Part shown: one piece after another, positions 15,127 to 64,000 of the stretch | How the letters are laid out: every line of letters starts with the position of its first letter | Numbering within the stretch: the stretch's first letter is position 1 | Assembly (NCBI GenBank): GCA_043818175.1 | Contig: JBDRGA010000052.1 | Location: 24,723 to 88,722 of the forward strand | Reading direction: 5' to 3' | Length of the DNA: 64,000 nucleotides | From: Candidatus Woesearchaeota archaeon | Lineage (GTDB): Archaea; Nanobdellota; Nanobdellia; Woesearchaeales; JBDRGA01 | Made by a program: the position numbers and the translations under genes | The notes under the pieces: generated by a model | Database searches by the model: none | Told to the model about the DNA's origin: nothing | Seen by the model: only the letters and a program-made list of their open reading frames with translations

Positions 15127-15205
15127 ATATTTAAAATCTTCGAAAAACTGTGGTCACCCAACCAGGAAACGAAGTCATCCCCCTGCCGGTCAGAAAAGTA
15201 TATAG

Positions 15206-15365
15206 TGCCCCCGCCGGGATTCGAACCCGGGTCGCTGCCTTGAGAGGGCAGCATGATTGGTTACCCGACGCTTCACCTTACGCCATGAGTGGGCTTGAGC
15301 TCCGAAGGAGCGAAACCCACATCGTCATTGACGGGCGAAACCGTCACCGGGCACACTACAGGGGC
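15206..15365 (-). tRNA. tRNA-Glu(CTC) with ~85-nt D-loop intron
   Basis: Acceptor GCCCCTG/CGGGGGC with A73. CCAATCATG-CTGCC-CTCTCAA-GGCAG anticodon arm. T arm CCGGG-TTCGAAT-CCCGG. Extra sequence between GTAGTGT and GTCGGGTAACCAATCAT contains the conserved intron module. Confidence 0.7.
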
Positions 15366-15372
15366 GATAATG

Positions 15373-15476
15373 TGAGTCCTGAGGGATTTGAACCCTCGAC
15401 CTATCGGTTTCTGGCCTTGCTCCTTTCAGAGCAATGGTTAAGAGCCGATTGCTCTACCGGACTGAGCTAAGGACCC
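15373..15476 (-). tRNA. tRNA-Lys(CTT) with canonical ~29-nt anticodon-loop intron
   Basis: GGGTCCT-TA-GCTC-AGTCCGGTA-GAGC-A-ATCGG-CTCTTA[intron ACCATTGCTCTGAAAGGAGCAAGGCCAGA]A-CCGAT-AGGTC-GAGGG-TTCAAAT-CCCTC-AGGACTC-A. Confidence 0.8.
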
Positions 15477-21722: not shown

Positions 21723-22136
21723 ATGGAATACTTGAGAGCAGCAACAGTTGTTGGATTGCTTGGCCTGACAGCATGCGCACAGCCAGCAATAAGGCATCCT
21801 CAATACGGAATGCCAACAACTCAAAAGGGAGTAATCGAGGTTGCGTACCAGTCTAGCAATGGTGAAGAACCCAAGAGAAATAACGTGTTAGTAAGACAAC
21901 TAGCAAATCCAGACAGCGTATTTCACGTTAGCCAAGACCCAGTCAATCCACTTCTCGCGGACTTTGATTTGACCAGTTTTGGCGTCGGCGATACTGTTCA
22001 AGTAAAGGGCAAATATGGCAAAATATGTGACGATCGTGAAAAAATGTCAAAGGACTTGAGAATGTCAATGGAAGGAGAAGATATTACTGATTTAATCCGT
22101 GTTAGTATGGTTAAACCTTCAAGTTCTCGTCGATAA
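21723..22136 (+). CDS. small putative lipoprotein
   Basis: Signal peptide VVGLLGLTAC with lipobox-like LTAC. Confidence 0.4.
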   Translation: MEYLRAATVVGLLGLTACAQPAIRHPQYGMPTTQKGVIEVAYQSSNGEEPKRNNVLVRQLANPDSVFHVSQDPVNPLLADFDLTSFGVGDTVQVKGKYGKICDDREKMSKDLRMSMEGEDITDLIRVSMVKPSSSRR

Positions 22137-23247
22137 CAAGTATCATCATCCCAGAACCCCAGGCAAAGGGTTTTTCTGACTTGTAAAAGAAACGTTTAAC
22201 GGGACTGCCATCTGGCTCGTAAACCTCGTAAACACCATTATCCTTGTCTATTTTCTGCTTCCACCATGCTGAATTGGCTTTGTATGCATCATAATCATAC
22301 TGCTTTTCCACCAATAACTGCAAGGCAGCAATCCAACTCCACCTCTGCTTTTCATGATAATCACCCATGCCTGCAAAGTAGAGTAAAGATGATTTCTCAC
22401 TAAATGCGTGTTTTGGGGTCATCGTGACAGGCAAGGCAGCATTTGGAGATGCGTCTGCTATGGCACTTAGAATTTCGGTTGAATGATTAGTAAGGTTGAA
22501 GTAAATCATCAACAGATTGCCAGCCGTGTCAAGAACGCCATTACCTTGCATTTCATCGTAATAATCACCGTTCCAGAATTCTTGCAATGCTTCTGCGGTA
22601 AGCTTATGATTGAATATGTACTTCAGATCGTCTTGACCTGAGTATCTGGCCATCTTCGTCATTGCAATTGAGCTTCCAGCGAAGCAAGCATTGGCGTACA
22701 AGGTTTCCCCTTCACGTTTCAACGAGTCCGCCCAATCAGCGTAAGTACCCTGTTCGATTAAGCTATTATTGTCAGTGTCCTGAGAGAGTTGCCACGAATA
22801 TACTGAGTCGATTAAAGTCCAGTTCTCGAGCAAGGAATAATCATGGGTCTCGCTAACGTACTTCTCCAGTGTTATCAAGAAAAGGCAGTTGCTGTCAACG
22901 ACTTTACTGGACGACTTATCATTCCTGTAATAGACTATTCTGGGCCATGCTGTTTTAATTCCTATGAATTTTAATGGTTGAATTCCGTGTGCAACCTTCA
23001 AAGGTATTTGCCCATTTCTTTGTGCATTAAGGAGCGTGTGTAACGTAACGTTAACAATCTCCGTGTCATTCAAAACAAGGCTGCCCCACGCAGCAAACAT
23101 CGAATCCCTTGCCCAAACATCGTTGAAATGACCTGTGCTCGCAGTTATTCCTTCCTTTCCATACGTTGCCCTTAAGTCATCTTCCAATGGACTAGCAAAT
23201 GCTATTGGAATAATCAAGACTAAGGTAAATAGCAGCGCGATTTTCAT
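22111..23247 (-). CDS. secreted (alpha/alpha)6-barrel glycoside hydrolase-like protein (GH15/GH63/GDE-like)
   Basis: Signal peptide MKIALLFTLVLIIPIAFA. FNDVWARDS motif typical of glucoamylase/GDE-type catalytic domains. Confidence 0.5.
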   Translation of the reverse strand: MKIALLFTLVLIIPIAFASPLEDDLRATYGKEGITASTGHFNDVWARDSMFAAWGSLVLNDTEIVNVTLHTLLNAQRNGQIPLKVAHGIQPLKFIGIKTAWPRIVYYRNDKSSSKVVDSNCLFLITLEKYVSETHDYSLLENWTLIDSVYSWQLSQDTDNNSLIEQGTYADWADSLKREGETLYANACFAGSSIAMTKMARYSGQDDLKYIFNHKLTAEALQEFWNGDYYDEMQGNGVLDTAGNLLMIYFNLTNHSTEILSAIADASPNAALPVTMTPKHAFSEKSSLLYFAGMGDYHEKQRWSWIAALQLLVEKQYDYDAYKANSAWWKQKIDKDNGVYEVYEPDGSPVKRFFYKSEKPFAWGSGMMILVIDENLKV

Positions 23248-24266
23248 CGTCTTTTTTTCTTTCTTTTCTTCTTGAAATTAAACTTAGGTCCTATGTGATA
23301 GTAGATGGCGAAGATGAACCCAACTGCAGTCCATAGTAGGTCTCTTGCCCTTACCATCAGACTTAATGCAACACCTGTGGCTGCACTTATGCCTAGTACT
23401 GCAAATAGACCTCCCTGTCCTGCTTCCATTACTCCCAAGGCCATTGGAACAGGAATTAATGTTGCGGCTCCAACAACACTAAAGACAAAGAACAACTGGT
23501 ATAATGAGAAATTCTGACCTACTAATTGTACGAGCACCTCGTACTCCATAAACATGAAAACCCACGCCAAGGCACTCATTCCAATTGCTGATAGGAACGC
23601 CATTTTGTTCTCTCCGTAGAACGAGACCATCTTGCGCTCCATGCGTTCCAATTGCCACGATACTTTCTTCAAGCGTTCAATCCTGTGAAGTTTAAGCGTT
23701 CTGAATATGCTCGTAAACACGTTGTATCCATTCAGAACTCTGCTGTAGAAGTAAACAACCAGAACCAGTATTATCAGCCCAACAATGTAAACAGTGTACT
23801 TCAACTGTGCAGGAAGCGCCAGTGTTGCCAGAATCAATAGACTTCCCAGAATAAAGAAAATACCACTCATGGTTATGTCAATCATCTTATCAACAATAAC
23901 TGTAGCGAGGGCGTCGTTGAACGGAATCTTATGTCTTGTAAGTAATGCTGCCCTCGCGGGCTCGCCTCCTATTCTTGCGCTTGGTGTTACGTAACTCACT
24001 CCAAAACCAACTACTCTGTACGTGAATAGCTTCCAGAATGGCACTTTGAAACCTTTCGCCCTGAGAACTATGTTCCAACGCAAAGTAAGTGCGGTCATGA
24101 TACCAATGCTCGCAATGAGGAACCAGATAACTAGTCCAAATGTGATATTCTTGAAACTGGCAATCAGCAAAGAGAAGCTAACCTTTGTGAATATGGCATA
24201 CATTAACAGAAGCCCAAATAGGAACAACGCACCAATCATGAGCCAACGACGCAGCTTCTTATCCAT
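23244..24266 (-). CDS. integral membrane protein, UPF0104/flippase-like (LPG synthase TM domain family)
   Basis: Multiple TM helices; SARIGGEPARAALL motif; basic C-terminal tail. Confidence 0.55.
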   Translation of the reverse strand: MDKKLRRWLMIGALFLFGLLLMYAIFTKVSFSLLIASFKNITFGLVIWFLIASIGIMTALTLRWNIVLRAKGFKVPFWKLFTYRVVGFGVSYVTPSARIGGEPARAALLTRHKIPFNDALATVIVDKMIDITMSGIFFILGSLLILATLALPAQLKYTVYIVGLIILVLVVYFYSRVLNGYNVFTSIFRTLKLHRIERLKKVSWQLERMERKMVSFYGENKMAFLSAIGMSALAWVFMFMEYEVLVQLVGQNFSLYQLFFVFSVVGAATLIPVPMALGVMEAGQGGLFAVLGISAATGVALSLMVRARDLLWTAVGFIFAIYYHIGPKFNFKKKRKKKRR

Positions 24267-24335
24267 GTCAAGGAAATGATTAGAATGTGTTTATAAGAGT
24301 GGTGGTGGCCCTGGGAGATACTGTCACCAAACGAC

Positions 24336-24665
24336 CTACCACAAAATATCTTCACGGAAACTCGGTTCCTGTGCAATATTTGCGACTAGGCCTGGCGTTA
24401 ATCTTGACCAAATCACTCTTGTGAGAGGAACACGGTCGTAATGTCCTTCACGGTCTACAAAATAGTTAGAAGGTCTGGCATCTACGAAAACTTCACTAGT
24501 GCCTGGGATTGGTCTCTCTGGCATTTGGTGACAATCCACATAAACAAGGGATTCCTTTGGGACTCCTCTGGATTCTGTTACCCATTTCGTTAAGCGCTCG
24601 TCTGGTTTTCCATCGAGTGTTACAATCATTATTTTTTCTAAAACATTTCCAAGATCGCCGGTCAT
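24336..24665 (-). CDS. hypothetical protein (109 aa) downstream of the DGR template repeat
   Basis: ORF only; not obviously Avd-like. Confidence 0.3.
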   Translation of the reverse strand: MTGDLGNVLEKIMIVTLDGKPDERLTKWVTESRGVPKESLVYVDCHQMPERPIPGTSEVFVDARPSNYFVDREGHYDRVPLTRVIWSRLTPGLVANIAQEPSFREDILW

Positions 24666-24965
24666 GCATATGAGAAACAGAATTAGTTATATAAATGTTT
24701 CGACCAGTAACCACTAATAAGTGGCTAATTGGCCGAAACGCTTAGATTCGGCGTTTATATGCCTTGGTGCGTCTTTCTTTCTTTAAACAAATAACGCATC
24801 AAGTTGTCTGGTTTGCGGCGCAAAAGTCGATTCGTGGCTTTTGAGCTTAGTTTTCTTGTTTATAAACAAAGAAGTGCCCCCACGTTTATAAAAATCTTGT
24901 CATCATTTTCAGTAAGAAGTGAGCCCCCAAAAAAAGAAAAATAATTGTCTCAGCCAATGGCTTGA

Positions 24966-25060
24966 CTATTCCAACAAGACGGGCGTTATTGTTGTTGAGG
25001 TTGTTGTTGTCGTTAGCATTGGAGTTGTTGTTGCCAACAGTCCTAACCCACACAGGCCGC
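24966..25060 (-). repeat. DGR template repeat (TR), 95 bp, AAC-codon rich on the minus strand
   Basis: On the minus strand it reads cggcctgtgtgggttaggactgttggcaacaacaactccaatgctaacgacaacaacaacctcaacaacaataacgcccgtcttgttgg. It matches VR at 25410..25504 except at TR adenines. Confidence 0.75.
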
Positions 25061-25269
25061 CTATATTAGCCATTTCACCTTCCTGAAAGCCACCACCATT
25101 TCGTTTCCGTCATGGTTGTATTTTATAGCAACGGTGTTGCCGTAGTGAAATGACGTGTAGTTCCAAGCCACTCTTTCTTTTTGCTGACACCACACATTGC
25201 TGTGTGATGTGGTAGCCGGGACAAGTGAAATAAAATGATAGAATATAAAAGAATTTCGAAAAAATGTTA

Positions 25270-26091
25270 TTACGCTCTGTATAGTTTTGAAACAGCGTCC
25301 AACATACCCGTTCTATTCAAGTCGGGATTGTTGATTACACCCATTATTTGATCGAGAGTAGGTTTAACCAACATACTACCTGATTTTTCGGGCGCAAGCG
25401 GCTCCGCCGCTACCCCAACAAGACGGGCGAGATTGACGTCGAGGCCGTAGCTGACGGTAGCATCGGAGTAGTAGTAGCCAACAGTCCAAACCCACACAGG
25501 CCGCAGGCCTTTTCTACCACTAGGGTAAAAGCCCATTGCATTCCTGTCAAAAATTCTCCCAGTAGTATCTTCAACCATCTTCTTATACGCTACCAACGCT
25601 GATTGGTCGCCTCCAGAAGCAAGATTCCAAAAAGCCGCACGAATTCCATCGGGATTAGCATACACATCCTCTCGCAATGCCCTAGCCGCAGATGGAGGAA
25701 TCACAAGAACACCCGCACCTTCCCTAATCGCATGATACTGATCCCTAGATACTTCCAAACCCCAATCATCCAGCTTTGATTTTGGATTAATTCCTTTAAC
25801 AAGCTCCTTTGCAACAGGATTAGCATTGTACCTAGCAAAAAGCACTTCATCACTACCGGCAGGATCAAGAACAGTGACGTCACCAATTACAACATAATTA
25901 TTCCTCAAAAGCATTCTGTCCGTCACATTTTCGCCCAGTGCTCTCCCGTAAATGAGTTGAGCACCATCCATCGGCTCTCTATTATCCTGCAAAAGCTTAG
26001 GCAGCTCCTTCCTCACTTCACCAAAGAAACTGGCTAGTCTGTCACGAGTACCACTCACTTGAACCTGTTCCCTGAATTGCAAATCGCCCAT
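25270..26091 (-). CDS. DGR variable (target) protein, 273 aa; VR encoded at 25410..25504
   Basis: The C-terminal region RPVWVWTVGYYYSDATVSYGLDVNLARLVG is the VR. The TR-encoded counterpart is RPVWVRTVGNNNSNANDNNNLNNNNARLVG. Confidence 0.7.
   Translation of the reverse strand: MGDLQFREQVQVSGTRDRLASFFGEVRKELPKLLQDNREPMDGAQLIYGRALGENVTDRMLLRNNYVVIGDVTVLDPAGSDEVLFARYNANPVAKELVKGINPKSKLDDWGLEVSRDQYHAIREGAGVLVIPPSAARALREDVYANPDGIRAAFWNLASGGDQSALVAYKKMVEDTTGRIFDRNAMGFYPSGRKGLRPVWVWTVGYYYSDATVSYGLDVNLARLVGVAAEPLAPEKSGSMLVKPTLDQIMGVINNPDLNRTGMLDAVSKLYRA
25410..25504 (-). repeat. DGR variable repeat (VR) inside the target gene
   Basis: 95-bp match to TR with about 22 substitutions, all at positions where the TR (coding strand) has A. 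Confidence 0.75.
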
Positions 26092-26270
26092 TTTTCTTCA
26101 ATCCCCCATACTTTTTTTAGCGTCTGAATTAAATGAATAATACTATTAGGTCAGTTCCAGTATTTAAACCTTTCGTTTATTTAGTTACTCTCTAGTGATT
26201 ACAGTGATGTCGCAGGCGGGGCTTTATAAACAACCAACCAGACTCTCGCACGTAATCCAAACAACACTAA

Positions 26271-27983
26271 ATGCCGACGCCTCCCCCCCCCGACACGACC
26301 TTTTACGACCAGATCTGCTCTTGTAAGAACCTCGAGCTGGCATTCCAAAGAGCAAGAAAGCACAAAACCACCAAGAAATACGTAATTGAATTTGAAGCCG
26401 ACCTTAAAGAAAACCTAGCTCAATTGAGAAATGAACTACTACTGCAAACATACAAGCCAAAACCCTTAGAAACGTTCATTCTACGAGACCCAAAAACAAG
26501 AAAGATTAGCAAATCAGACTTTCGCGACAGAATAATCCACCACGCCATCTGCAACATCATCGAACCCACCTTCGACAAGACATTCATCGACGACTCCTAC
26601 GCAAACAGAATAAAGAAAGGAACGCTCAATGCAATCAAAAGATTCGATAAATTCAAGAAAAAAGCATCACAAAACAACACAATACGATGCTACGTCCTAA
26701 AGGCAGACGTCAAAAGCTACTTCGACTCAGTAGACCACCAAGTACTGCTCAACATATTAGCAAGAAAAATCGATGATAAAAGAGTTCTCTGGCTCATCGA
26801 ACTAATACTCTCCAACCACAAAGCAAAACAAGAAAACAAAGGAATGCCACTAGGCAACCTAACAAGCCAATTTTTCGCCAACGTCTACCTGAACGAATTA
26901 GACCAGTTCGCAAAACACGAGCTAAAAGCAAAATACTACATCAGATACGTAGACGACTTCGTAATCCTACACCAATCAAGAAAACAATTAGAAGATTACA
27001 AAGAAAAAATAGACAACTTTCTCGCAGACACCCTTAAACTCAAGCTTCATCCAGACAAATCACACATCATCAAACTAGAAAAAGGAATCAACTTCTTAGG
27101 ATTCAGAATCTTCTTCCACCACCACTTACTAGTCAAAAGGAACATGAGAAAATTCGAGAAAAAACTCAATAGCATGAAACAAGAATACACAAACGGAAAA
27201 ATAACAAGAGAACAAGTAATTGAGAAATTTGAAGGATGGCTAGCGTATTCCGGCCATGCCAACACGTACAAGTACAGACGAAAAGTCACAAGCAAGTTCA
27301 ACAACCTATTCCCCGTTGAAGAAGACATCAAAGTCACTTCAGTGAAAAAGCACGAAAACTTCAACCACAAAGTCGATTCTAGCAAGATAGAATTCACACA
27401 ACAAAAAACACTACAACTATTCAAGAAAGGAATGCCAATAAAACAAATCGCCAGTCATAGAGGTGTTAAGGAAGGCACAATATGGAAACACGTAGCCAGT
27501 CTCATAGAGCACCACCAACTGAGGCTAAAACAAGTACTTCCGAACGAGAAGATTAAAAAAATTCTGGCAAACATCAAAACGCCAAACGATACACTAAAAG
27601 AAATAAAGGAACGATTACAAGACGAAACCATAACCTACAACGAGATAGAATGCGTACTTGCAAACACCAAGGGTAAACAGAGGAAGAAAAGCACTAACTA
27701 TTGGTTTTCATGGTACCAACGAACAAACTGCCACAGAAAATGCAACAACGACAAAACGCAAAGAGAATCGTGCAGAATAAAGTTCCAACAAATAGTCGCA
27801 AAGACCGCAAGTCTAGAATTCTCTAAAAAAGAATTCCTAAACTTCTTCAATGACCATGTTAACATCTGCATCCTGCCAAACGCTGAAAAGAGGAGATTCG
27901 TTTCCTGGAAGGAATTCAAAGACAAAAAACATGAAAAAGGGAGCCACAAACACGAAAAACCGCCGAGAAAGACCAGTGAATAG
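26271..27983 (+). CDS. reverse transcriptase, DGR-type, with ~190-aa C-terminal extension
   Basis: RT motifs: IRCYVLKADVKSYFDSVDH (motif 3); GMPLGNLTSQFFANVYLNELD (motif 4 with the DGR-diagnostic SQ in place of QG..SP); YIRYVDDFVIL (YVDD); INFLGFRI. Confidence 0.85.
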   Translation: MPTPPPPDTTFYDQICSCKNLELAFQRARKHKTTKKYVIEFEADLKENLAQLRNELLLQTYKPKPLETFILRDPKTRKISKSDFRDRIIHHAICNIIEPTFDKTFIDDSYANRIKKGTLNAIKRFDKFKKKASQNNTIRCYVLKADVKSYFDSVDHQVLLNILARKIDDKRVLWLIELILSNHKAKQENKGMPLGNLTSQFFANVYLNELDQFAKHELKAKYYIRYVDDFVILHQSRKQLEDYKEKIDNFLADTLKLKLHPDKSHIIKLEKGINFLGFRIFFHHHLLVKRNMRKFEKKLNSMKQEYTNGKITREQVIEKFEGWLAYSGHANTYKYRRKVTSKFNNLFPVEEDIKVTSVKKHENFNHKVDSSKIEFTQQKTLQLFKKGMPIKQIASHRGVKEGTIWKHVASLIEHHQLRLKQVLPNEKIKKILANIKTPNDTLKEIKERLQDETITYNEIECVLANTKGKQRKKSTNYWFSWYQRTNCHRKCNNDKTQRESCRIKFQQIVAKTASLEFSKKEFLNFFNDHVNICILPNAEKRRFVSWKEFKDKKHEKGSHKHEKPPRKTSE

Positions 27984-28049
27984 CAGCAGTCATACGTTCT
28001 CCGACTTCACCTAATACCACACCAACACCATTGCTAGAATCACAAGGAG

Positions 28050-28577
28050 GTGGTTTTCACAATGACATTTACCTACAAGAGAGAGCCATTAGAAGAAGAC
28101 GAAATCCTAAATCTAAGGCGTTCTTGCCAGAATTTCGAGGAAGAACTAGTCATCAACATCCTACTGGATTCGGGCATGCGAGTCAGCGAACTAGCTAGCC
28201 TGAGGGAAGAAAACGTTAGCTGGCAGAGGAACTGCTTTACGATAATTGGCAAAGGCAACAAAAGAAGAATCGTACCAATGAGCAAAAGAACAAGACTACT
28301 CTTGCTAGACTGCTTGTCAAAAGAGAATAAGTTCCCATTAGCGATGAGAACTATCCAGAAGTACGTCAAGATCGTGGCAGAGAGAGCAAGGATAAGAAAG
28401 ACAGTAAGCCCCCACGTATTAAGACATACTTTTGCCGTCAGCTATTTGCACAAGGGAGGCAACCTAAGGGCATTGCAAGCAATTCTAGGCCACAGTAGCA
28501 TCACCACGACTGACATTTACTTGAATTACTCAGGCATAAGAGTGCTGGAGGACTTTGAGAAAGTATGGCAAGAGTAA
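28050..28577 (+). CDS. short tyrosine recombinase/integrase (catalytic domain only)
   Basis: HVLRHTFAVSYL...LGHSSITTTDIYLNY gives the R-H-R-Y catalytic residues. Confidence 0.75.
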   Translation: MVFTMTFTYKREPLEEDEILNLRRSCQNFEEELVINILLDSGMRVSELASLREENVSWQRNCFTIIGKGNKRRIVPMSKRTRLLLLDCLSKENKFPLAMRTIQKYVKIVAERARIRKTVSPHVLRHTFAVSYLHKGGNLRALQAILGHSSITTTDIYLNYSGIRVLEDFEKVWQE

Positions 28578-29098
28578 AATACAACAATGGCCTAGTCAGG
28601 GTTAGGATTACTCTTGATGAAGATGAGTGCCTGTTTAGGGAAAAGGAACTGGATTATTATGATAAAGAATACCTTGAACGACATAGTTATGAGTACGGAG
28701 AATTCGTACCAATAGGACAATATCACAAAGAAGGTTTCTATGTGAAGAGGAACACGAGGGAGTCATTAATGCACACTTTCTTGGTTCATAACATCAAGCA
28801 ACACTTAAGAAAACACACCAATGACATCCAAGTCAGGATAACCAAGAAGCCAGACATTGTATTCAAGAACAAGAATGGAAAAACTATCGCACTCGAAATA
28901 GAGACGGGAAAGAATTTCAAGAGACACAAGCAGAGAATCAAAGAAAAATTCATGCAAGCAAAAAAGAACTATCCTCTAATCTATATTGTTCTGGCTTCAA
29001 CAAAGAAGAAATCATATTACAAAAGACTTCTTCCAAGCATTCCGCTTCTTGTCAGAACAGATATCAACCGCTTCATACGCGCCCAGTTCAAGAGATAA
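28565..29098 (+). CDS. hypothetical protein, possibly PD-(D/E)xK nuclease-like
   Basis: KPDIVF...IALEIETGK arrangement weakly resembles a PD-(D/E)xK core. Speculative. Confidence 0.3.
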   Translation: MARVKYNNGLVRVRITLDEDECLFREKELDYYDKEYLERHSYEYGEFVPIGQYHKEGFYVKRNTRESLMHTFLVHNIKQHLRKHTNDIQVRITKKPDIVFKNKNGKTIALEIETGKNFKRHKQRIKEKFMQAKKNYPLIYIVLASTKKKSYYKRLLPSIPLLVRTDINRFIRAQFKR

Positions 29099-29222
29099 TG
29101 TATAGACTTATTATTACGGGTGGTGACGCTTGGGGGGAATGCCGTTATATTGGCAGAATTCTGCAAGATTAGGGGGTTGTGTTGGGGGTTCATATGACCA
29201 CTGTTTCACCCCCTAAATTTAT

Positions 29223-30002
29223 TCAATCAAAAATTCCTTGAGTGGTGGCTTGCAACCGTGTCAAGAGCTCGAATTTCTCTTTGAACTCTTCCAAACTCAA
29301 TTCGCCATTTGCAAAACGCAGCTTCAACAATAATATCGGATCATGAACTTCTCCAACAGTTCTTTCTTTCTTCTTCACGCTTCCAAAGGCCATATTGATC
29401 TTATTCTGCAAGTCAGAATTCGTAATGTAAGCATAAATTTGTGTGGTGTGAATGTCAACATGTCCCAAGCTTCGTTGAACATAATACAAGTCAACGCCCT
29501 TCTCAAGAAGATACGTTGCATACGTGTGCCTCAATGTGTGAAAGCTGTAGGCGTATCTTTGCTGACCAATTTCAGTTTTGAATGTTTTGATGCTTAAACC
29601 TGCTTTCAACAGATAGTTTCTGAATTTTAGGCTTAAAATATTGGCAGAGTACTTGTGGCCGAAGCTTGTACAAATCACAAACTCAGAATCTTTTTGCAAG
29701 CGAAACCATTTCTCCAATAAAGGCTTCATCTTGCTTGGCAACATTACAACGCGATCTTTGCTTCCTTTTCCTTCTCGCACAATGACTTTCTCGCTTTCCA
29801 GGTCAACATCCTGCTTTTTCAAGTTGCAAATTTCGCTAATTCGTAGACCGCAAAACAAAGAGACAAGACAGCCCATGAAGACTTGGCTGTCATCGATGGC
29901 CTCGAATAGTGCTAATAATTGTTTCTTGTTGAAAATATTCGGAAGTTTTCGGTTTGTGTTGGGTCGTGCAAAGTTCTTTCCCATTGGTTCACATCCTCGC
30001 AA
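29223..30002 (-). CDS. tyrosine recombinase/integrase (XerC/D-like)
   Basis: GLRISEICNLKKQDV; HTLRHTYATYLLEKGVDLYYVQRSLGHVDIHTTQIYAYI. Confidence 0.85.
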   Translation of the reverse strand: MRGCEPMGKNFARPNTNRKLPNIFNKKQLLALFEAIDDSQVFMGCLVSLFCGLRISEICNLKKQDVDLESEKVIVREGKGSKDRVVMLPSKMKPLLEKWFRLQKDSEFVICTSFGHKYSANILSLKFRNYLLKAGLSIKTFKTEIGQQRYAYSFHTLRHTYATYLLEKGVDLYYVQRSLGHVDIHTTQIYAYITNSDLQNKINMAFGSVKKKERTVGEVHDPILLLKLRFANGELSLEEFKEKFELLTRLQATTQGIFD

Positions 30003-30390
30003 CTAGGCTTAATCCGTATTCTCGTATGGATTGGCTGAGTTCGTTGAATCCCTCGTGCTTTCGCTTGAAAGCCTCGGAAATGCCCGATTTTTGGCTTATC
30101 TTCTTTTGTCTGACCTGAAACCGTATGTCCTCAGGAAGTCGCTCCAGTAAAAGCCAACGGTAAACTGTGAATGGATTATGCCCTTTTTCCATCAGCAAGG
30201 CGTAGATGTCTTTTTCGACTCCTAAGAGCAGATAGTCTTTCTTATTGTAGTGGTAATGTGCTAGTTTTCCCATAATTTCCTGAAGATTACGCACGTCCAC
30301 TTGAGGAAGACGACTCTTCAAAAGAATCCTAAACGATTCCAGCTTCTCAACAAAACTTTTCTGCATATTCGGGTCTTTCACGCACGTCAC
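29989..30390 (-). CDS. hypothetical protein; possible frameshifted N-terminal (core-binding) domain of the adjacent integrase
   Basis: Overlaps the integrase start by 14 nt in another frame. KDIYALLMEKGHNPFTVYRWLLLERL resembles Xer N-domain helices. Confidence 0.3.
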   Translation of the reverse strand: MTCVKDPNMQKSFVEKLESFRILLKSRLPQVDVRNLQEIMGKLAHYHYNKKDYLLLGVEKDIYALLMEKGHNPFTVYRWLLLERLPEDIRFQVRQKKISQKSGISEAFKRKHEGFNELSQSIREYGLSLVARM

Positions 30391-30496
30391 CTCGTTTAAA
30401 ACCCAAAAACCCCAAATACTGCCGACACAAAGCCCGGCTCACCAGATGCAGAATATATAAATCTTTCGCGTATTTACCACCAATTAGTAGCACTAG

Positions 30497-30739
30497 TGAC
30501 CCTGGGGGGATTCGAACCCCCGACCTACAGCTCGCTCCTCGTTTTCTCGATTGGGGGGACTTCAATCCGCAGATTGAATGTCGCCCATCGGGATCAAGGA
30601 ACGAAACCCTTGACCGTTAGGAGGCTGCCGCGCTATATGCCCAAGGTCTGCCCCTAGTTGAATGGGCTTGAGCTCCAGGGGAGCGAAACCCATATCGGGA
30701 TCAAGGAACGAAACCCTTGCCAGGCTGCGCTACAGGGCC
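30497..30739 (-). tRNA. tRNA-Arg(CCT) with two long introns (D-loop ~80 nt and anticodon-loop ~85 nt)
   Basis: Acceptor GGCCCTG/CAGGGTC with A73. GCGC-AGCCTGG...ATA-GCGC D arm interrupted. GCAGC-CTCCTA[intron]A-GCTGT anticodon arm. AGGTC variable loop. GGGGG-TTCGAAT-CCCCC T arm. Confidence 0.7.
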
Positions 30740-30876: not shown

Positions 30877-31338
30877 TTGGTCAATGACGATGTGGGCAGA
30901 ATTTTTGACAGAGCGGAGGAGTCGGCACAGTCCAGGCACGCAATTGGATTGGAGGAGATAGCACGCGCTTCTGCCTTCAGTCTCGTGCAGTGGAACTCAA
31001 TTAATCACGATGCACCTGTGGACGTTGAAGGTGACCTGGTGCGAATCTACTTTCCTGTGGACCTAGCCGTGACCTTCGGACCCAAGAAGTCCTTCCAAGA
31101 GCGTTTGAAAATGCTGGATGGTGACTCTGCGGACGAAGGTCTTGCCAAGGTTTCCTATCTAGTCGGGTCTACGGACCTGAAATCTCTCAATTCCGCATTG
31201 CGGGAAGCGGAGTTACAAGACAAGTCTCGCCTGTTCAAGAGATACATGAAGAGGTACGGTAAAGACTATGATCTTGTTGTGGTTACGTTTGGCTATTTTC
31301 CAATAAGGGGAGATCAAACATCGCCTGACCTTCTTTAA
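30877..31338 (+). CDS. hypothetical protein (153 aa)
   Basis: ORF only. Confidence 0.3.
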   Translation: MVNDDVGRIFDRAEESAQSRHAIGLEEIARASAFSLVQWNSINHDAPVDVEGDLVRIYFPVDLAVTFGPKKSFQERLKMLDGDSADEGLAKVSYLVGSTDLKSLNSALREAELQDKSRLFKRYMKRYGKDYDLVVVTFGYFPIRGDQTSPDLL

Positions 31339-52228: not shown

Positions 52229-52331
52229 TATCTGCTGAATCCTGCTTCGTTTATAATCCTTTCGTAATGCAACTACTATAAAGTAACAACTAATACAAAC
52301 ATTTATATAGTAGTTTTACCACTATACAGGA

Positions 52332-52832
52332 ATGAAACTGCTCTGGGTTCTTGTGATGATTACCTGCTTCCTAGGAGGCATGGTAGCAGACAGCGCAATA
52401 CATCTCACAAGAGCAGAACCTTCGACAGAAAGCCCTGCCGACCAGACCGTTCTAATGGAAAAGCCATCACCTGGAAACTGGGTTCCTGAGACTGCAATCA
52501 AAGTAGGCAACGATCACGTCGTCATTGACCTCACAGGCAGAGATGTGCAGTGGAGTACATTTACAGATACGAACAGCATGGACCCTGTACTCGACGCAGG
52601 AAGCAACGGCATTGAAGTAAAGCCCAATAACGCTGACGAGATAGATATAGGTGATATTGTAGCGTACAAAAGCGAGTACTCTGAGGGCATAATTATACAT
52701 CGCGTTGTCGAAAAAAGTTATGACAGAGATGGCGTGTACTTCACGCTCAAGGGAGACAACAACCCAAGAGCAGACCCTGGCAAAGTGCGTTTTGAGCAGA
52801 TTCAGAGAGTTCTCGTGGCGATAATCTATTAG
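52332..52832 (+). CDS. signal peptidase I (S26 family)
   Basis: N-terminal TM. Catalytic Ser box TDTNSMDPVL and GDNNPRAD. Confidence 0.75.
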   Translation: MKLLWVLVMITCFLGGMVADSAIHLTRAEPSTESPADQTVLMEKPSPGNWVPETAIKVGNDHVVIDLTGRDVQWSTFTDTNSMDPVLDAGSNGIEVKPNNADEIDIGDIVAYKSEYSEGIIIHRVVEKSYDRDGVYFTLKGDNNPRADPGKVRFEQIQRVLVAIIY

Positions 52833-63266: not shown

Positions 63267-63549
63267 GTAGGACCAATATCATAGCTAGCATATAATCTTT
63301 TTCTTAGGCCGACTAATGTCAAGCTGGTTCACCGACCAAAACGCTTATAAAGGGGTCGCGGTTCCACCTGATACATCGCCACCAAAGGAACCCGCTCCAA
63401 GTCAGCGAGCGAGTATTTCTAAGCGAGAAAAAATGAGTGCTTGAAGTAATACTTCATGCATGAGGGAATCACGAATACGAAAATTGACGTTATAGAAAGT
63501 TCAGCCGAAGAAATTTACGGAAATCATACCGTAATCGCGAAGTACAGCG

Positions 63550-64000
<451 letters not shown>

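What the first reader, a model, noticed from the sequence alone, without database searches (positions are those of the whole stretch)
24700..30480. DGR carried on a tRNA-Arg-adjacent integrative element with two tyrosine recombinases
A full-length Xer-like integrase (29223..30002) abuts tRNA-Arg(CCT) at 30497..30739, the classic arrangement for an integrated element. A second, catalytic-domain-only recombinase (28050..28577) and a nuclease-like ORF (28565..29098) lie between this integrase and the DGR. Upstream of the full integrase, a 133-aa ORF (29989..30390) overlaps it in another frame. This ORF could be the integrase core-binding domain separated from the catalytic ORF by a frameshift, or an SSV-like partitioned int. 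The left boundary is not defined. The secreted glycoside hydrolase and UPF0104 membrane protein at 22111..24266 might be cargo or flanking chromosome.
Basis: inference. Interest (0 to 1): 0.6.

Follow-up and report, generated by a model that had tools for sequence, protein, structure and literature searches.

The report
DGR-carrying inserted island beside tRNA-Arg
A roughly 6-kb piece of foreign DNA sits next to an arginine tRNA gene in a Woesearchaeota genome; it carries a protein-diversifying retroelement and belongs to a widespread, apparently undescribed family of archaeal islands built around two shortened recombinases and a small DNA-binding protein.

Summary
There is a complete DGR, with all 18 TR/VR mismatches at TR adenines. 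There are two PF00589 recombinase ORFs, a 133-aa ORF upstream of one of them, and a two-intron tRNA-Arg(CCT) at 30497-30739.

The segment of about 24340-30496 is an insertion.
- At least 10 Woesearchaeota loci keep GatD-GatE-GH116-(LPG synthase)-tRNA-Arg(CCT)-TruD-Adk contiguous, with no recombinase or RT.
- The segment is the strongest tetranucleotide outlier of the 64-kb window.
- Its proteins have relatives at 81-95% identity, while flanking genes find at most 42%.

It belongs to an island family seen here in about 15 distinct contexts. The fixed parts are ORF133 followed by Int253, a convergent Int175, and a roughly 270-nt conserved non-coding distal segment. Cargo varies: a DGR in 7 islands, otherwise restriction-modification, AbiE or toxin-antitoxin genes.

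- Neither recombinase is full-length; both are XerA-like catalytic domains only.
- ORF133 is a conserved separate gene with a weak ParB/KorB-like helix-turn-helix fold. It is not a frameshifted N-domain or an SSV-type split int.
- The glycoside hydrolase and the membrane protein are flanking chromosome.
- The tRNA-derived att repeat is only weakly detectable, and most relatives are not next to tRNAs.

The recombination site and present-day mobility remain inferred.

The parts
30497..30739 (-). tRNA-Arg(CCT) with two introns (D-loop, about 79 nt; anticodon loop, about 85 nt). It is the chromosomal neighbour of the island, with its 3' end at 30497.
   Evidence: In-silico splicing followed by ARAGORN gives tRNA-Arg(cct). 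The gene is missed by default ARAGORN and by Rfam. tRNA-Arg(CCT) next to TruD is conserved in L005, L007, L008, L011 and L015 (ARAGORN) and in L012, with a by-eye reading in L002.
30454..30491 (-). Proximal operator-promoter unit: 14-16 bp palindrome (30476-30491), BRE-like CGAAAG (30463-30468) and TATA ATTTATATA (30454-30462). Homology to related islands starts here.
   Evidence: Alignment of 17 upstream regions. In the pairs L084/L085 and L090/L097 the sequences are 100% identical from the TATA box onward and unrelated before it, apart from the palindrome motif.
29989..30390 (-). ORF133: small all-helical protein, putative ParB/KorB-like HTH DNA-binding partner of Int253.
   Evidence: 93 homologues, all hypothetical and all from Woese/Nanoarchaeota. 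It always lies directly upstream of Int253. The AF2 model has pLDDT 85.5. Top Foldseek hits are ParB/Noc/KorB/SopB DNA-binding domains, but with E 0.3-7.
29223..29984 (-). Int253: tyrosine recombinase with an XerA-like catalytic domain only, plus a roughly 60-aa C-terminal tail with a faint SHOCT match.
   Evidence: PF00589 at 7.3e-32 and SHOCT at 0.0087. XerA 5hxy/4a8e at E about 1e-22, catalytic domain only. 603 homologues, about 250 aa long, at 56-95% identity.
28565..29098 (+). ORF177: possible PD-(D/E)xK-type nuclease. It overlaps the stop of Int175 and occupies the variable slot between the convergent recombinases.
   Evidence: Homologues occupy the same slot in L081, L083, L100, L101, L095, L087, L108 and L112. 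D97, E111, E113 and K128 are invariant. The model is low-confidence (pLDDT 51) and the nuclease fold hits are non-significant.
28050..28577 (+). Int175: second tyrosine recombinase, catalytic domain only, convergent with Int253. No promoter-like sequence was seen by eye in the 66 nt after the RT stop, so it may be co-transcribed with the RT.
   Evidence: PF00589 at 5.8e-30. XerA at 5.5e-21. A homologue at 63-84% identity lies 1-4 kb downstream of Int253, convergent, in 16 related loci.
26271..27983 (+). DGR reverse transcriptase fused to an HTH_40 domain. A palindrome plus TATA unit lies upstream, starting at 26185.
   Evidence: Pfam. PADLOC RT at 5.3e-57. 61% identical to the RT of L084, which has the same fusion. 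Motif scan.
25270..26091 (-). DGR target gene (273 aa, no Pfam match) with VR at 25410-25504.
25061..25221 (-). RT-16 RNA (Rfam RF03019), lying between VR and TR.
   Evidence: 66 bits, E 5.9e-08 and 6.5e-10. A homologous stretch lies in the L084 DGR.
24966..25060 (-). DGR template repeat (TR).
   Evidence: 18 of 18 mismatches to VR are at TR adenines.
24686..24956 (-). Conserved distal non-coding segment of the island family. It has an internal promoter-like box and ends in a palindrome (24711-24724), CGAAAC (24697-24702) and TATA ATTTATATA (24688-24696), which face ORF109.
   Evidence: Alignment A2. The nhmmer profile hits the far end of islands in L082, L084, L087, L092, L095 and L112, and also L108 (weak), L093 (cut by the contig end) and L081 (partial). 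It gives no hit in 532 kb of background loci. Consensus folding is inconclusive.
24336..24665 (-). ORF109: an orphan gene driven by the distal promoter. It is inside the inserted DNA relative to the synteny of relatives.
   Evidence: No Pfam match. No homologue in relatives. The genes in this position in other islands are mutually unrelated.
24306..24339 (-). Candidate degenerate direct repeat of the 3' half of tRNA-Arg, a possible attR remnant. It lies immediately upstream of the LPG-synthase promoter.
   Evidence: Local alignment with exact blocks GTAGGTCG and CCCAGGG. p=0.0034 in the 150 nt upstream of the LPG synthase gene; 0.7% of real 150-nt windows score as high; p=0.088 over 22000-25300.

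Best explanation
Window positions of about 24340-30496 are a genomic island inserted between tRNA-Arg(CCT) and the promoter of the LPG-synthase-like gene, inside an otherwise conserved Woesearchaeota gene block.

**What the island is**
- It belongs to a family widespread in Woesearchaeota and Nanoarchaeota.
- The family has four fixed parts:
  a. An operon of a small ParB/KorB-like HTH protein (ORF133) and a catalytic-domain-only, XerA-like tyrosine recombinase (Int253). A promoter preceded by a 14-bp palindrome drives it.
  b. A second catalytic-domain-only recombinase (Int175), convergent with the first.
  c. A variable slot between the two recombinases. Here it holds a possible nuclease, ORF177.
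  d. A roughly 270-nt conserved non-coding distal segment, which ends in a second palindrome-BRE-TATA unit and drives a variable terminal gene.
- Cargo is inserted between these parts.
- Here the cargo is a complete DGR: RT-HTH_40, TR, RT-16 RNA and a VR-bearing target gene. In relatives the cargo is restriction-modification, AbiE, MNT/HEPN or other genes.

**Inferred mechanism (not shown)**
- The recombinases, with DNA recognition supplied in trans by ORF133 binding the palindromes, integrated the island by site-specific recombination.
- The same proteins also mediate exchange or rearrangement of cargo at the repeated operator-promoter units.
- The DGR then works autonomously, diversifying the 273-aa target protein.

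**Shown**: the insertion, the family architecture, the variable cargo, the discordant similarity and the junction positions.

**Inferred**: which protein binds what, where strands are exchanged, and whether the island is still mobile.
For: **Insertion**
- GatD-GatE-GH116-(LPGs)-tRNA-Arg(CCT)-TruD-Adk-ORF152 is contiguous in L002, L003, L005, L007, L011, L012, L013 and L015 among others.
- In those loci 1.2-3.7 kb separate GatE from TruD, against 9.7 kb here.
- In L011 the tRNA 3' end is followed after 4 nt by a TATA box and then by the LPG synthase gene.
- No island protein or distal segment occurs in 532 kb of such loci.

**Composition**
- Windows covering 24-30 kb have tetranucleotide z-scores of 2.2-3.4, the highest in the window.
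- GC there is 0.40, against 0.42-0.45 for most of the rest of the window.

**Family**
- ORF133 followed by Int253 in tandem is present in every related locus that reaches far enough upstream.
- Convergent Int175 is present in 16 loci.
- An RT with genuine TR/VR pairs is present in L082, L083, L084, L092, L095 and L096.
- The distal segment lies at the far end of at least 8 islands of 5.8-9.6 kb.
- Flanking genes differ from locus to locus.

**Mobility signals**
- L084 and L085 share 2374 bp at 99.8% identity in unrelated flanks. L090 and L097 share 1154 bp at 92%.
- Both pairs become identical exactly at the TATA box.
- Window versus L083: ribosomal protein S8e is 47% identical, but ORF133 is 75%, Int253 81% and Int175 82%.
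- At similar S8e distances, L083-L110 and window-L110 give ORF133 42% and Int253 63-65%.
- The best non-self homologue of the flanking LPG synthase is 42% identical among 5.8 billion proteins. TruD reaches 37%. Int253 reaches 85-95%.
- An 84-nt direct repeat (82% identical) brackets the L084 island plus extra cargo.
- A degenerate copy of the tRNA 3' half lies at the predicted far junction.

**Cargo indels**
- L081 lacks the stretch from the TR to Int175 (about 24849-28560). It retains the same 32-mer, window 24817-24848, next to its ORF177 homologue.
- L094 has a two-gene insertion directly after the Int253 stop codon.
Against: - No clean att duplication was found. The tRNA-half repeat is degenerate, at about 63% identity by my own hand count, and is not significant over the wider region (p=0.09). 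Repeat searches found nothing else.
- Only 2 of 14 islands abut a tRNA, so target specificity is unclear.
- Some synteny around the island is shared between distant genomes. L083 and L110 both lie near L37e-LSM-S8e; L084 and L108 both lie near FtsZ/FKBP. That fits long residence and vertical descent.
- At deep divergence the module's identity tracks host divergence (L083-L110).
- Identical Int proteins found on several contigs mostly sit in the same context.
- L085 and L110 lack a detectable distal segment.
- No circular form, empty site in a close relative, replication gene or transfer gene was seen, and there was no hit in viral contigs.
- The palindrome-TATA unit also occurs at internal promoters and at an unrelated gene at 52273. 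It may be purely regulatory, and the TATA-level junctions could then reflect recombination between repeated promoters rather than an att core.
- The ORF133 fold assignment rests on non-significant Foldseek hits.
Confidence: 0.68

Rival explanations
1. The ORF133/Int253/Int175 module is the resident Xer-type chromosome-dimer-resolution system of Woesearchaeota and is inherited vertically. The DNA next to it is simply a hypervariable hotspot where the DGR and defence genes accumulate, comparable to elements that exploit dif sites. The module itself does not move.
For: - The best structural relatives of both recombinases are archaeal XerA.
- The family is very widespread and well conserved: 603 hits of about 250 aa.
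- Neighbourhoods are partly shared between distant genomes.
- Module identity tracks host divergence in the deep comparison.
- Identical proteins mostly sit in identical contexts.
Against: - Here the module lies inside an insertion that interrupts a block conserved in at least 10 genomes, and it is compositionally foreign.
- 99.8%-identical modules sit in unrelated flanks.
- The window-L083 module similarity is far above the S8e yardstick.
- Both proteins lack the core-binding domain that XerA has.
- 532 kb of Woesearchaeota and other DPANN sequence around TruD holds no copy. This says nothing about the rest of those genomes.
Confidence: 0.17
2. This is a classical archaeal tRNA-targeting integrated element, a pNOB8-type plasmid or provirus remnant. 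Int253 recombined an attP that carried the 3' half of tRNA-Arg with the chromosomal gene. Everything from 24340 to 30496 is the decayed remnant.
For: - The island starts 5 nt after the tRNA 3' end, with the int operon adjacent.
- A degenerate copy of the tRNA 3' half lies at 24306-24339, exactly where synteny puts the ancestral tRNA end.
- L097 also abuts a tRNA, tRNA-Thr(CGT).
Against: - Twelve of 14 related islands have no tRNA upstream.
- The near-identical partner of L097, L090, is not at a tRNA.
- The repeat is weak.
- There are no replication, capsid or conjugation genes, and no hit in viral contigs.
- The int gene is not partitioned as in SSV-type elements.
Confidence: 0.1
3. The recombinases are functional accessories of the DGR rather than mobility genes. 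They might invert the VR-TR block or switch its expression, or help install cDNA.
For: - An RT lies within 10 kb of Int253/Int175 in 7 of about 15 islands, against none in 532 kb of background.
- RT and Int175 are adjacent and co-oriented here and in L084.
- The VR-RT16-TR block is inverted relative to RT-Int175 between the window and L084.
- Palindrome units in opposite orientation lie at 24724 and 26185.
Against: - Half of the islands have both recombinases but no RT: L087, L093, L108, L110 and L112.
- Known DGRs need no recombinase (own knowledge of the Bordetella phage system; the papers on reconstitution in E. coli were only listed and were not read).
- No inverted repeats were detected at the ends of the inverted block.
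Confidence: 0.05

Closest known systems
Archaeal XerA (Thermoplasma 5hxy, Pyrococcus 4a8e)
   Same: Best sequence match for both recombinases, at E about 1e-21 to 1e-22. The catalytic R-K-HxxR-H-Y positions are conserved in the alignments.
   Different: XerA is about 290-320 aa and has an N-terminal core-binding domain. Int253 and Int175 align only to the catalytic half. Int253 instead has a C-terminal tail and an upstream partner gene. Here the genes lie on inserted, compositionally foreign DNA.
Archaeal tRNA-targeting integrative elements with tyrosine integrases (SSV-type and pNOB8-type, as reviewed in PMC8371274)
   Same: A small element with the int gene at one end, lying next to the 3' end of a tRNA gene. 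Cargo can benefit the host.
   Different: There is no clean tRNA-derived att repeat and no partition of the int gene. Most family members are not at tRNAs. There are two truncated recombinases plus an HTH partner instead of one full integrase. No replication or virion genes are present.
DGRs of DPANN archaea and DGRs on bacterial genomic islands
   Same: Canonical adenine-specific TR/VR pattern, an RT, and a target with a C-terminal VR. DGRs are known to be abundant in Woesearchaeota (stated in PMC8421398 and PMC5758913). A Legionella DGR on an integrative island is known from my own knowledge and was not checked here.
   Different: In the papers I could search, no report links DPANN DGRs to a specific recombinase-bounded island. 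The RT here is fused to HTH_40, and no Avd-like accessory gene was recognised.
KorB/ParB/Noc-type HTH DNA-binding proteins
   Same: The ORF133 model's best structural neighbours are these domains. A 14-bp palindrome recurs at several island promoters, reminiscent of KorB operators on plasmid RK2 (own knowledge).
   Different: The matches are not significant (E 0.3-7). ORF133 has no ParB N-terminal CTPase domain and no sequence-level match to any Pfam or PDB family.
Integrons and recombinase-bounded cargo islands (for example the tycheposons preprint listed)
   Same: A conserved recombinase platform with highly variable, often defence-related, cargo inserted at defined junctions.
   Different: No attC-like cassette repeats were found. 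Cargo enters at several positions. There are two recombinases in convergent orientation, and the platform itself appears to relocate.

Membership tests
Diversity-generating retroelement | A TR/VR pair whose differences are confined to TR adenines | tested here: met
   95-nt pair; 18 of 18 mismatches at TR adenines.
Diversity-generating retroelement | A DGR-type reverse transcriptase next to the TR | tested here: met
   RVT_1 at 1.4e-26. The RT is 43-62% identical to RTs of six other loci that each have TR/VR pairs. RT clade membership was not tested phylogenetically.
Diversity-generating retroelement | VR at the 3' end of a target ORF (C-type lectin-like fold) | tested here: inconclusive
   VR is at codons of about 196-227 of the 273-aa ORF. 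There is no Pfam match and the fold was not modelled.
Diversity-generating retroelement | An accessory protein (Avd or HRDC type) | tested here: not met
   No Avd-like ORF was recognised. The RT carries an HTH_40 domain that might substitute for one.
Tyrosine recombinase (PF00589) | A catalytic domain with R...K...HxxR...H/W...Y | tested here: met
   Pfam at 7e-32 and 6e-30. The residues are visible in the alignments to XerA.
XerA orthologue (chromosome dimer resolution) | An N-terminal core-binding domain fused to the catalytic domain | tested here: not met
   Both proteins align only to XerA residues of about 94/129 to 307. There are no N-domain Pfam hits.
XerA orthologue (chromosome dimer resolution) | A single chromosomal copy acting at a dif site | not testable with these tools
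   Whole genomes were not available. Here the locus lies inside an insertion.
SSV-type integrase element | An att site inside the int gene, so that integration splits int into two parts at the two element ends | tested here: not met
   ORF133 and Int253 are adjacent at one end in all loci, and ORF133 is a distinct conserved family.
tRNA-integrating element | An intact tRNA at one junction | tested here: met
   tRNA-Arg(CCT) ends 5 nt from the island.
tRNA-integrating element | A direct repeat of the tRNA 3' part at the other junction | tested here: inconclusive
   A degenerate copy lies at 24306-24339. It scores p=0.003 locally and p=0.09 over 3.3 kb. No exact repeat was found.
tRNA-integrating element | An empty site in related genomes | tested here: met
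   tRNA-Arg(CCT) is flanked directly by the LPG synthase or GH116 gene on one side and by TruD on the other in distant relatives (33-41% protein identity). No close relative was available.
PD-(D/E)xK nuclease (ORF177) | An alpha-beta-beta-beta-alpha-beta core with D...(D/E)xK catalytic residues | tested here: inconclusive
   D97, E111, E113 and K128 are invariant. The topology is present, but the model has pLDDT 51. Fold hits have E of at least 0.1. There is no Pfam, PDB or PADLOC sequence hit.
Integron | An attI site next to the int gene and attC-bounded cassettes | tested here: not met
   No cassette-type repeats were found. IntI4 is only a weaker hit than XerA.

The most novel reading that the evidence does not exclude
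ORF133, Int253 and Int175 form a previously undescribed split recombination machine. It consists of two catalytic-domain-only tyrosine recombinases whose DNA recognition is supplied in trans by a ParB/KorB-like HTH protein that binds a 14-bp palindrome next to archaeal TATA boxes. Recombination at these operator-promoter units integrates the island and shuffles its cargo while re-wiring promoters. On this reading the island family is the main vehicle that spreads DGRs and defence systems among DPANN archaea.
Probability: 0.2. Interest if true: 0.8.

Novelty: new variant of a known kind. Interest (0 to 1): 0.6.

Why it matters
- DGRs are unusually common in DPANN archaea, but how they spread there is not known. 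This locus indicates that in Woesearchaeota they often ride on one specific family of small recombinase-bounded islands, which also carry restriction-modification, Abi and toxin-antitoxin cargo.
- The island's recombination module is not one of the described archaeal integrase types. It consists of two XerA-like catalytic domains without core-binding domains, plus a conserved small HTH partner and a conserved non-coding end.
- If the module is active, it would be a compact and experimentally tractable recombination system. It would also be a marker for finding variable, host-interaction-related gene content in uncultivated archaea.

Tried and rejected
**Searches that found nothing useful**
- Exact or near-exact att search with the 36-nt tRNA 3' end (up to 3 mismatches) and generic repeat finding: nothing.
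- Look-up of a window protein (Adk) by exact sequence for strain variants: not on record. The window's source contig is the only contig carrying P0001, P0121 and P0214, so no close empty-site genome could be found.
- Viral contigs: no relative of Int253.
- Pfam for ORF133, the DGR target, ORF109 and ORF153, and for the slot and terminal genes of the relatives: no usable hit.
- PADLOC for everything except the RT: nothing.
- PDB profile searches for ORF133 and ORF177: only spurious hits, SBDS and ubiquitin.
- Literature searches for a reported link between DPANN DGRs and recombinases: none found.

**Ideas tested and dropped**
- ORF133 as a frameshifted recombinase N-domain. Rejected, because the two ORFs stay separate in all loci, in the same frame or in different frames.
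- A consensus RNA structure for the distal segment. RNAalifold gave a weak result with a positive covariation term, so I call the segment conserved non-coding DNA, not an RNA.
- The TATA box as the sole att core, with ORF109 as a displaced host gene. I downgraded this for three reasons. Relatives place the LPG synthase gene directly after the tRNA. The terminal genes of six of seven islands have no Pfam match. Palindrome-TATA units also recur at internal promoters.

**Technical limits**
The single-sequence model is poor.

Full report
**1. What is in the sequence**

The window is archaeal. It has an archaeal SSU rRNA at 63549-64000, and its proteins are annotated in a Candidatus Woesearchaeota MAG on a 104-kb contig.

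The DGR is real.
- A 95-nt repeat pair, TR 24966-25060 and VR 25410-25504, is 81% identical.
- All 18 differences sit at TR adenines on the - strand.
- VR lies near the 3' end of ORF 25270-26091(-).
- An Rfam RT-16 RNA at 25061-25221(-) lies between VR and TR.
- The RT at 26271-27983(+) carries RVT_1 plus a C-terminal HTH_40 domain.

Two ORFs carry the tyrosine-recombinase catalytic domain PF00589. They are 28050-28577(+), called Int175 here, and 29223-29984(-), called Int253 here.
- Both find archaeal XerA as their best solved relative, but only its catalytic half. The catalytic R, K, HxxR, H and Y positions are present.

The tRNA is also real. ARAGORN in default mode and Rfam report nothing at 30497-30739. 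After two introns are removed, the sequence folds as a canonical tRNA-Arg(CCT) on the - strand.

**2. The segment is an insertion**

I fetched loci around TruD homologues from GTDB representative genomes and mapped the window's flanking proteins onto them.
- At least ten Woesearchaeota loci keep the order GatD, GatE, GH116-like, (LPG-synthase-like), TruD, Adk, ORF152.
- In those loci 1.2-3.7 kb separate GatE from TruD. Here the distance is 9.7 kb.
- tRNA-Arg(CCT) sits directly upstream of TruD in at least five of them by ARAGORN, and in one or two more that carry introns.
- In L011 the tRNA 3' end is followed after 4 nt by a TATA box and then by the LPG-synthase gene.
- None of these loci, 532 kb in total, contains a homologue of Int253, Int175, ORF133, ORF177 or the RT, or the island's conserved non-coding end.

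Relative to this block, the window has extra DNA from just upstream of the LPG-synthase promoter (about 24340) to the tRNA 3' end (30496). The glycoside hydrolase and the membrane protein are therefore chromosome, not cargo.

Two further lines agree.
- Flanking genes have no close relatives anywhere. The LPG synthase finds at most 42% identity among 5.8 billion proteins, and TruD at most 37%. Int253 finds 85-95%, ORF133 86% and Int175 84%.

**3. It belongs to a family of islands**

I collected 33 loci, from about 15 distinct contexts, through Int253 homologues. The architecture recurs.
- A roughly 130-aa ORF133 homologue lies immediately upstream of a roughly 250-aa Int253 homologue wherever the contig reaches far enough upstream.
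- A convergent Int175 homologue lies 1-4 kb downstream, in 16 loci.
- A variable slot lies between the two recombinases. It holds ORF177-like proteins, larger proteins ending in the same domain, AbiEii, or an MNT/HEPN-like pair.
- Further cargo lies beyond Int175.

Six related loci carry RT homologues with genuine adenine-biased TR/VR pairs. With the window, that makes seven of about fifteen islands with a DGR. Others carry a DpnII-type restriction-modification system (L087), Dam/MmeI-type genes (L110) or unknown genes.

The far end of the islands is marked by a roughly 270-nt conserved non-coding segment, at 24686-24956 in the window.
- A profile of this segment finds the far end of islands in L082, L084, L087, L092, L095 and L112, and also L108 (weak), L093 (cut by the contig end) and L081 (partial).
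- It ends in a palindrome, a BRE-like box and a TATA box, and it faces a terminal gene that is unrelated from island to island.
- RNAalifold did not give a convincing consensus structure for it.

The near end starts with a similar unit: a 14-bp palindrome yyACT-N4-AGTrr, then about 9 nt, GAAAg, and ATTTATAg.

**4. Evidence on mobility**

For mobility:
- L084 and L085 share 2374 bp at 99.8% identity, while the sequence on both sides is unrelated. L090 and L097 share 1154 bp at 92%. In both pairs the sequences become identical exactly at the TATA box of the near unit and are unrelated before it, apart from the palindrome motif.
- Between the window and L083, ribosomal protein S8e is 47% identical, but ORF133 is 75%, Int253 81% and Int175 82%. 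At similar S8e distances (L083-L110 at 51%, window-L110 at 42%), ORF133 is only 42% and Int253 63-65%.
- In L084 an 84-nt direct repeat (82% identical) brackets the island plus RlaP and two RHS genes.
- In the window, a degenerate copy of the tRNA 3' half lies at 24306-24339, with exact blocks GTAGGTCG and CCCAGGG. This is exactly where the synteny of L011 and L015 places the ancestral tRNA end. It scores p=0.003 for the 150 nt upstream of the LPG synthase gene, but only p=0.09 over 22000-25300.

Against mobility, or at least for long residence:
- Only the window and L097 abut a tRNA.
- L083 and L110 both lie near L37e-LSM-S8e, and L084 and L108 both lie near FtsZ/FKBP.
- Identical Int proteins on several contigs mostly share their context.
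- L085 and L110 lack the distal segment.
- No viral contig carries the module.
- The palindrome-TATA unit also occurs at the RT promoter (26185), at internal promoters of L083 and L096, and at an unrelated gene at 52273. It may be a shared operator, and the TATA-level junctions may reflect recombination between repeated promoter units rather than an att core.

**5. The accessory proteins**

ORF133 is not a broken recombinase N-domain.
- It is a separate ORF in every locus. It shares a frame with Int253, interrupted by a stop codon, in L081 and L082. It is in a different frame here and in L083.
- It forms its own family of 93 'hypothetical' proteins restricted to Woese/Nanoarchaeota.
- An AlphaFold model built from 33 sequences is confident (pLDDT 85.5, six helices).
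- Its Foldseek neighbours in the PDB are almost all ParB/Noc/KorB/SopB DNA-binding domains. No recombinase N-domain appears, but the E-values are 0.3-7.
- I read it as a candidate DNA-recognition or regulatory partner. This is inference.

ORF177 has invariant D97, E111, E113 and K128. A low-confidence model shows the alpha-beta-beta-beta-alpha-beta core of restriction-endonuclease-like proteins. Its fold hits are non-significant and lean towards FAN1/VRR-NUC, Cas4, NucS and TnsA.

**6. Cargo structure**

- L081 lacks Int175 and the DGR. It keeps, next to its ORF177 homologue, an exact 32-mer that in the window lies at 24817-24848, just beyond the TR. The stretch from the TR to Int175 (about 24849-28560) is therefore an indel between two otherwise related islands.
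- Between the window and L084, the VR-RT16-TR block is inverted relative to RT-Int175.
- L094 has a two-gene insertion exactly after the Int253 stop codon, relative to L095.

**7. Verdict**

It is now backed by empty-site synteny, by composition and by a family of related islands.

The side proposals do not hold. These are a full-length integrase, a frameshifted or SSV-type split int, and GH/UPF0104 as cargo.

The att site, the crossover position and present-day mobility remain open.

In the papers I could search I found no description of this island family, or of a link between DPANN DGRs and such recombinases. The literature tool does not cover most subscription journals.

Noticed in passing
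window 30497-30739 and 15205-15476: The tRNA genes here carry several introns. The two introns of tRNA-Arg share an identical 26-mer (30587-30612 = 30694-30719). A second intron-bearing tRNA at about 15205-15364(-), next to tRNA-Lys(CTT) at 15372-15476, reads as Glu(CTC) by eye. Its intron is 76% identical over 67 nt to the Arg D-loop intron. Default ARAGORN and Rfam miss both genes.
   Followed up: partly
window 30877-31338: ORF153 lies between tRNA-Arg and TruD, where relatives have at most 200 nt, and it has no homologue in them. It may be a second small insertion. Its first codons contain a 17-mer identical to part of the tRNA intron at 15316-15332. By my own estimate a match of that length could arise by chance in 64 kb.
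   Followed up: no
window 52273-52310: A palindrome-BRE-TATA unit like those at the island ends (CTACTATAAAGTAA...CATTTATATAG) sits in the promoter of an unrelated 166-aa gene (52332-52832). It could be a host operator of the same type or a potential secondary target.
   Followed up: partly
L084 9439-9522 and 19524-19607: An 84-nt direct repeat (82% identical), which includes the palindrome and the BRE, brackets the island plus RlaP and two RHS-repeat genes. The second copy precedes a NAGPA-family gene.
   Followed up: partly
L094 1169-2298 versus L095 about 10750: A two-gene insertion, a nucleotidyltransferase and a HEPN-like protein, lies exactly after the Int253 stop codon in one of two islands that are 89% identical. 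Both junctions contain TTACAG followed by short inverted repeats.
   Followed up: partly
L102 1445-3802: Two inverted, frameshifted copies of ORF133-Int253 face each other on one short contig. This is either a decayed duplication or an assembly artefact.
   Followed up: no
window 26271-27983; L084 12893-14545; L082, L083, L092, L095: The DGR RT comes in two forms in this island family: about 550-570 aa with a C-terminal HTH_40 domain (window, L084), and about 373-378 aa without it. I did not check whether a separate HTH/HRDC gene accompanies the short form.
   Followed up: no
window 24849-24965: Directly after the TR there is a T-rich run (TTATTTTTCTTTTTTTGG on the - strand), which is terminator-like. 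It is followed by a conserved promoter-like box (GACAAGATTTTTATA) inside the distal conserved segment. This suggests a separate small transcript.
   Followed up: partly
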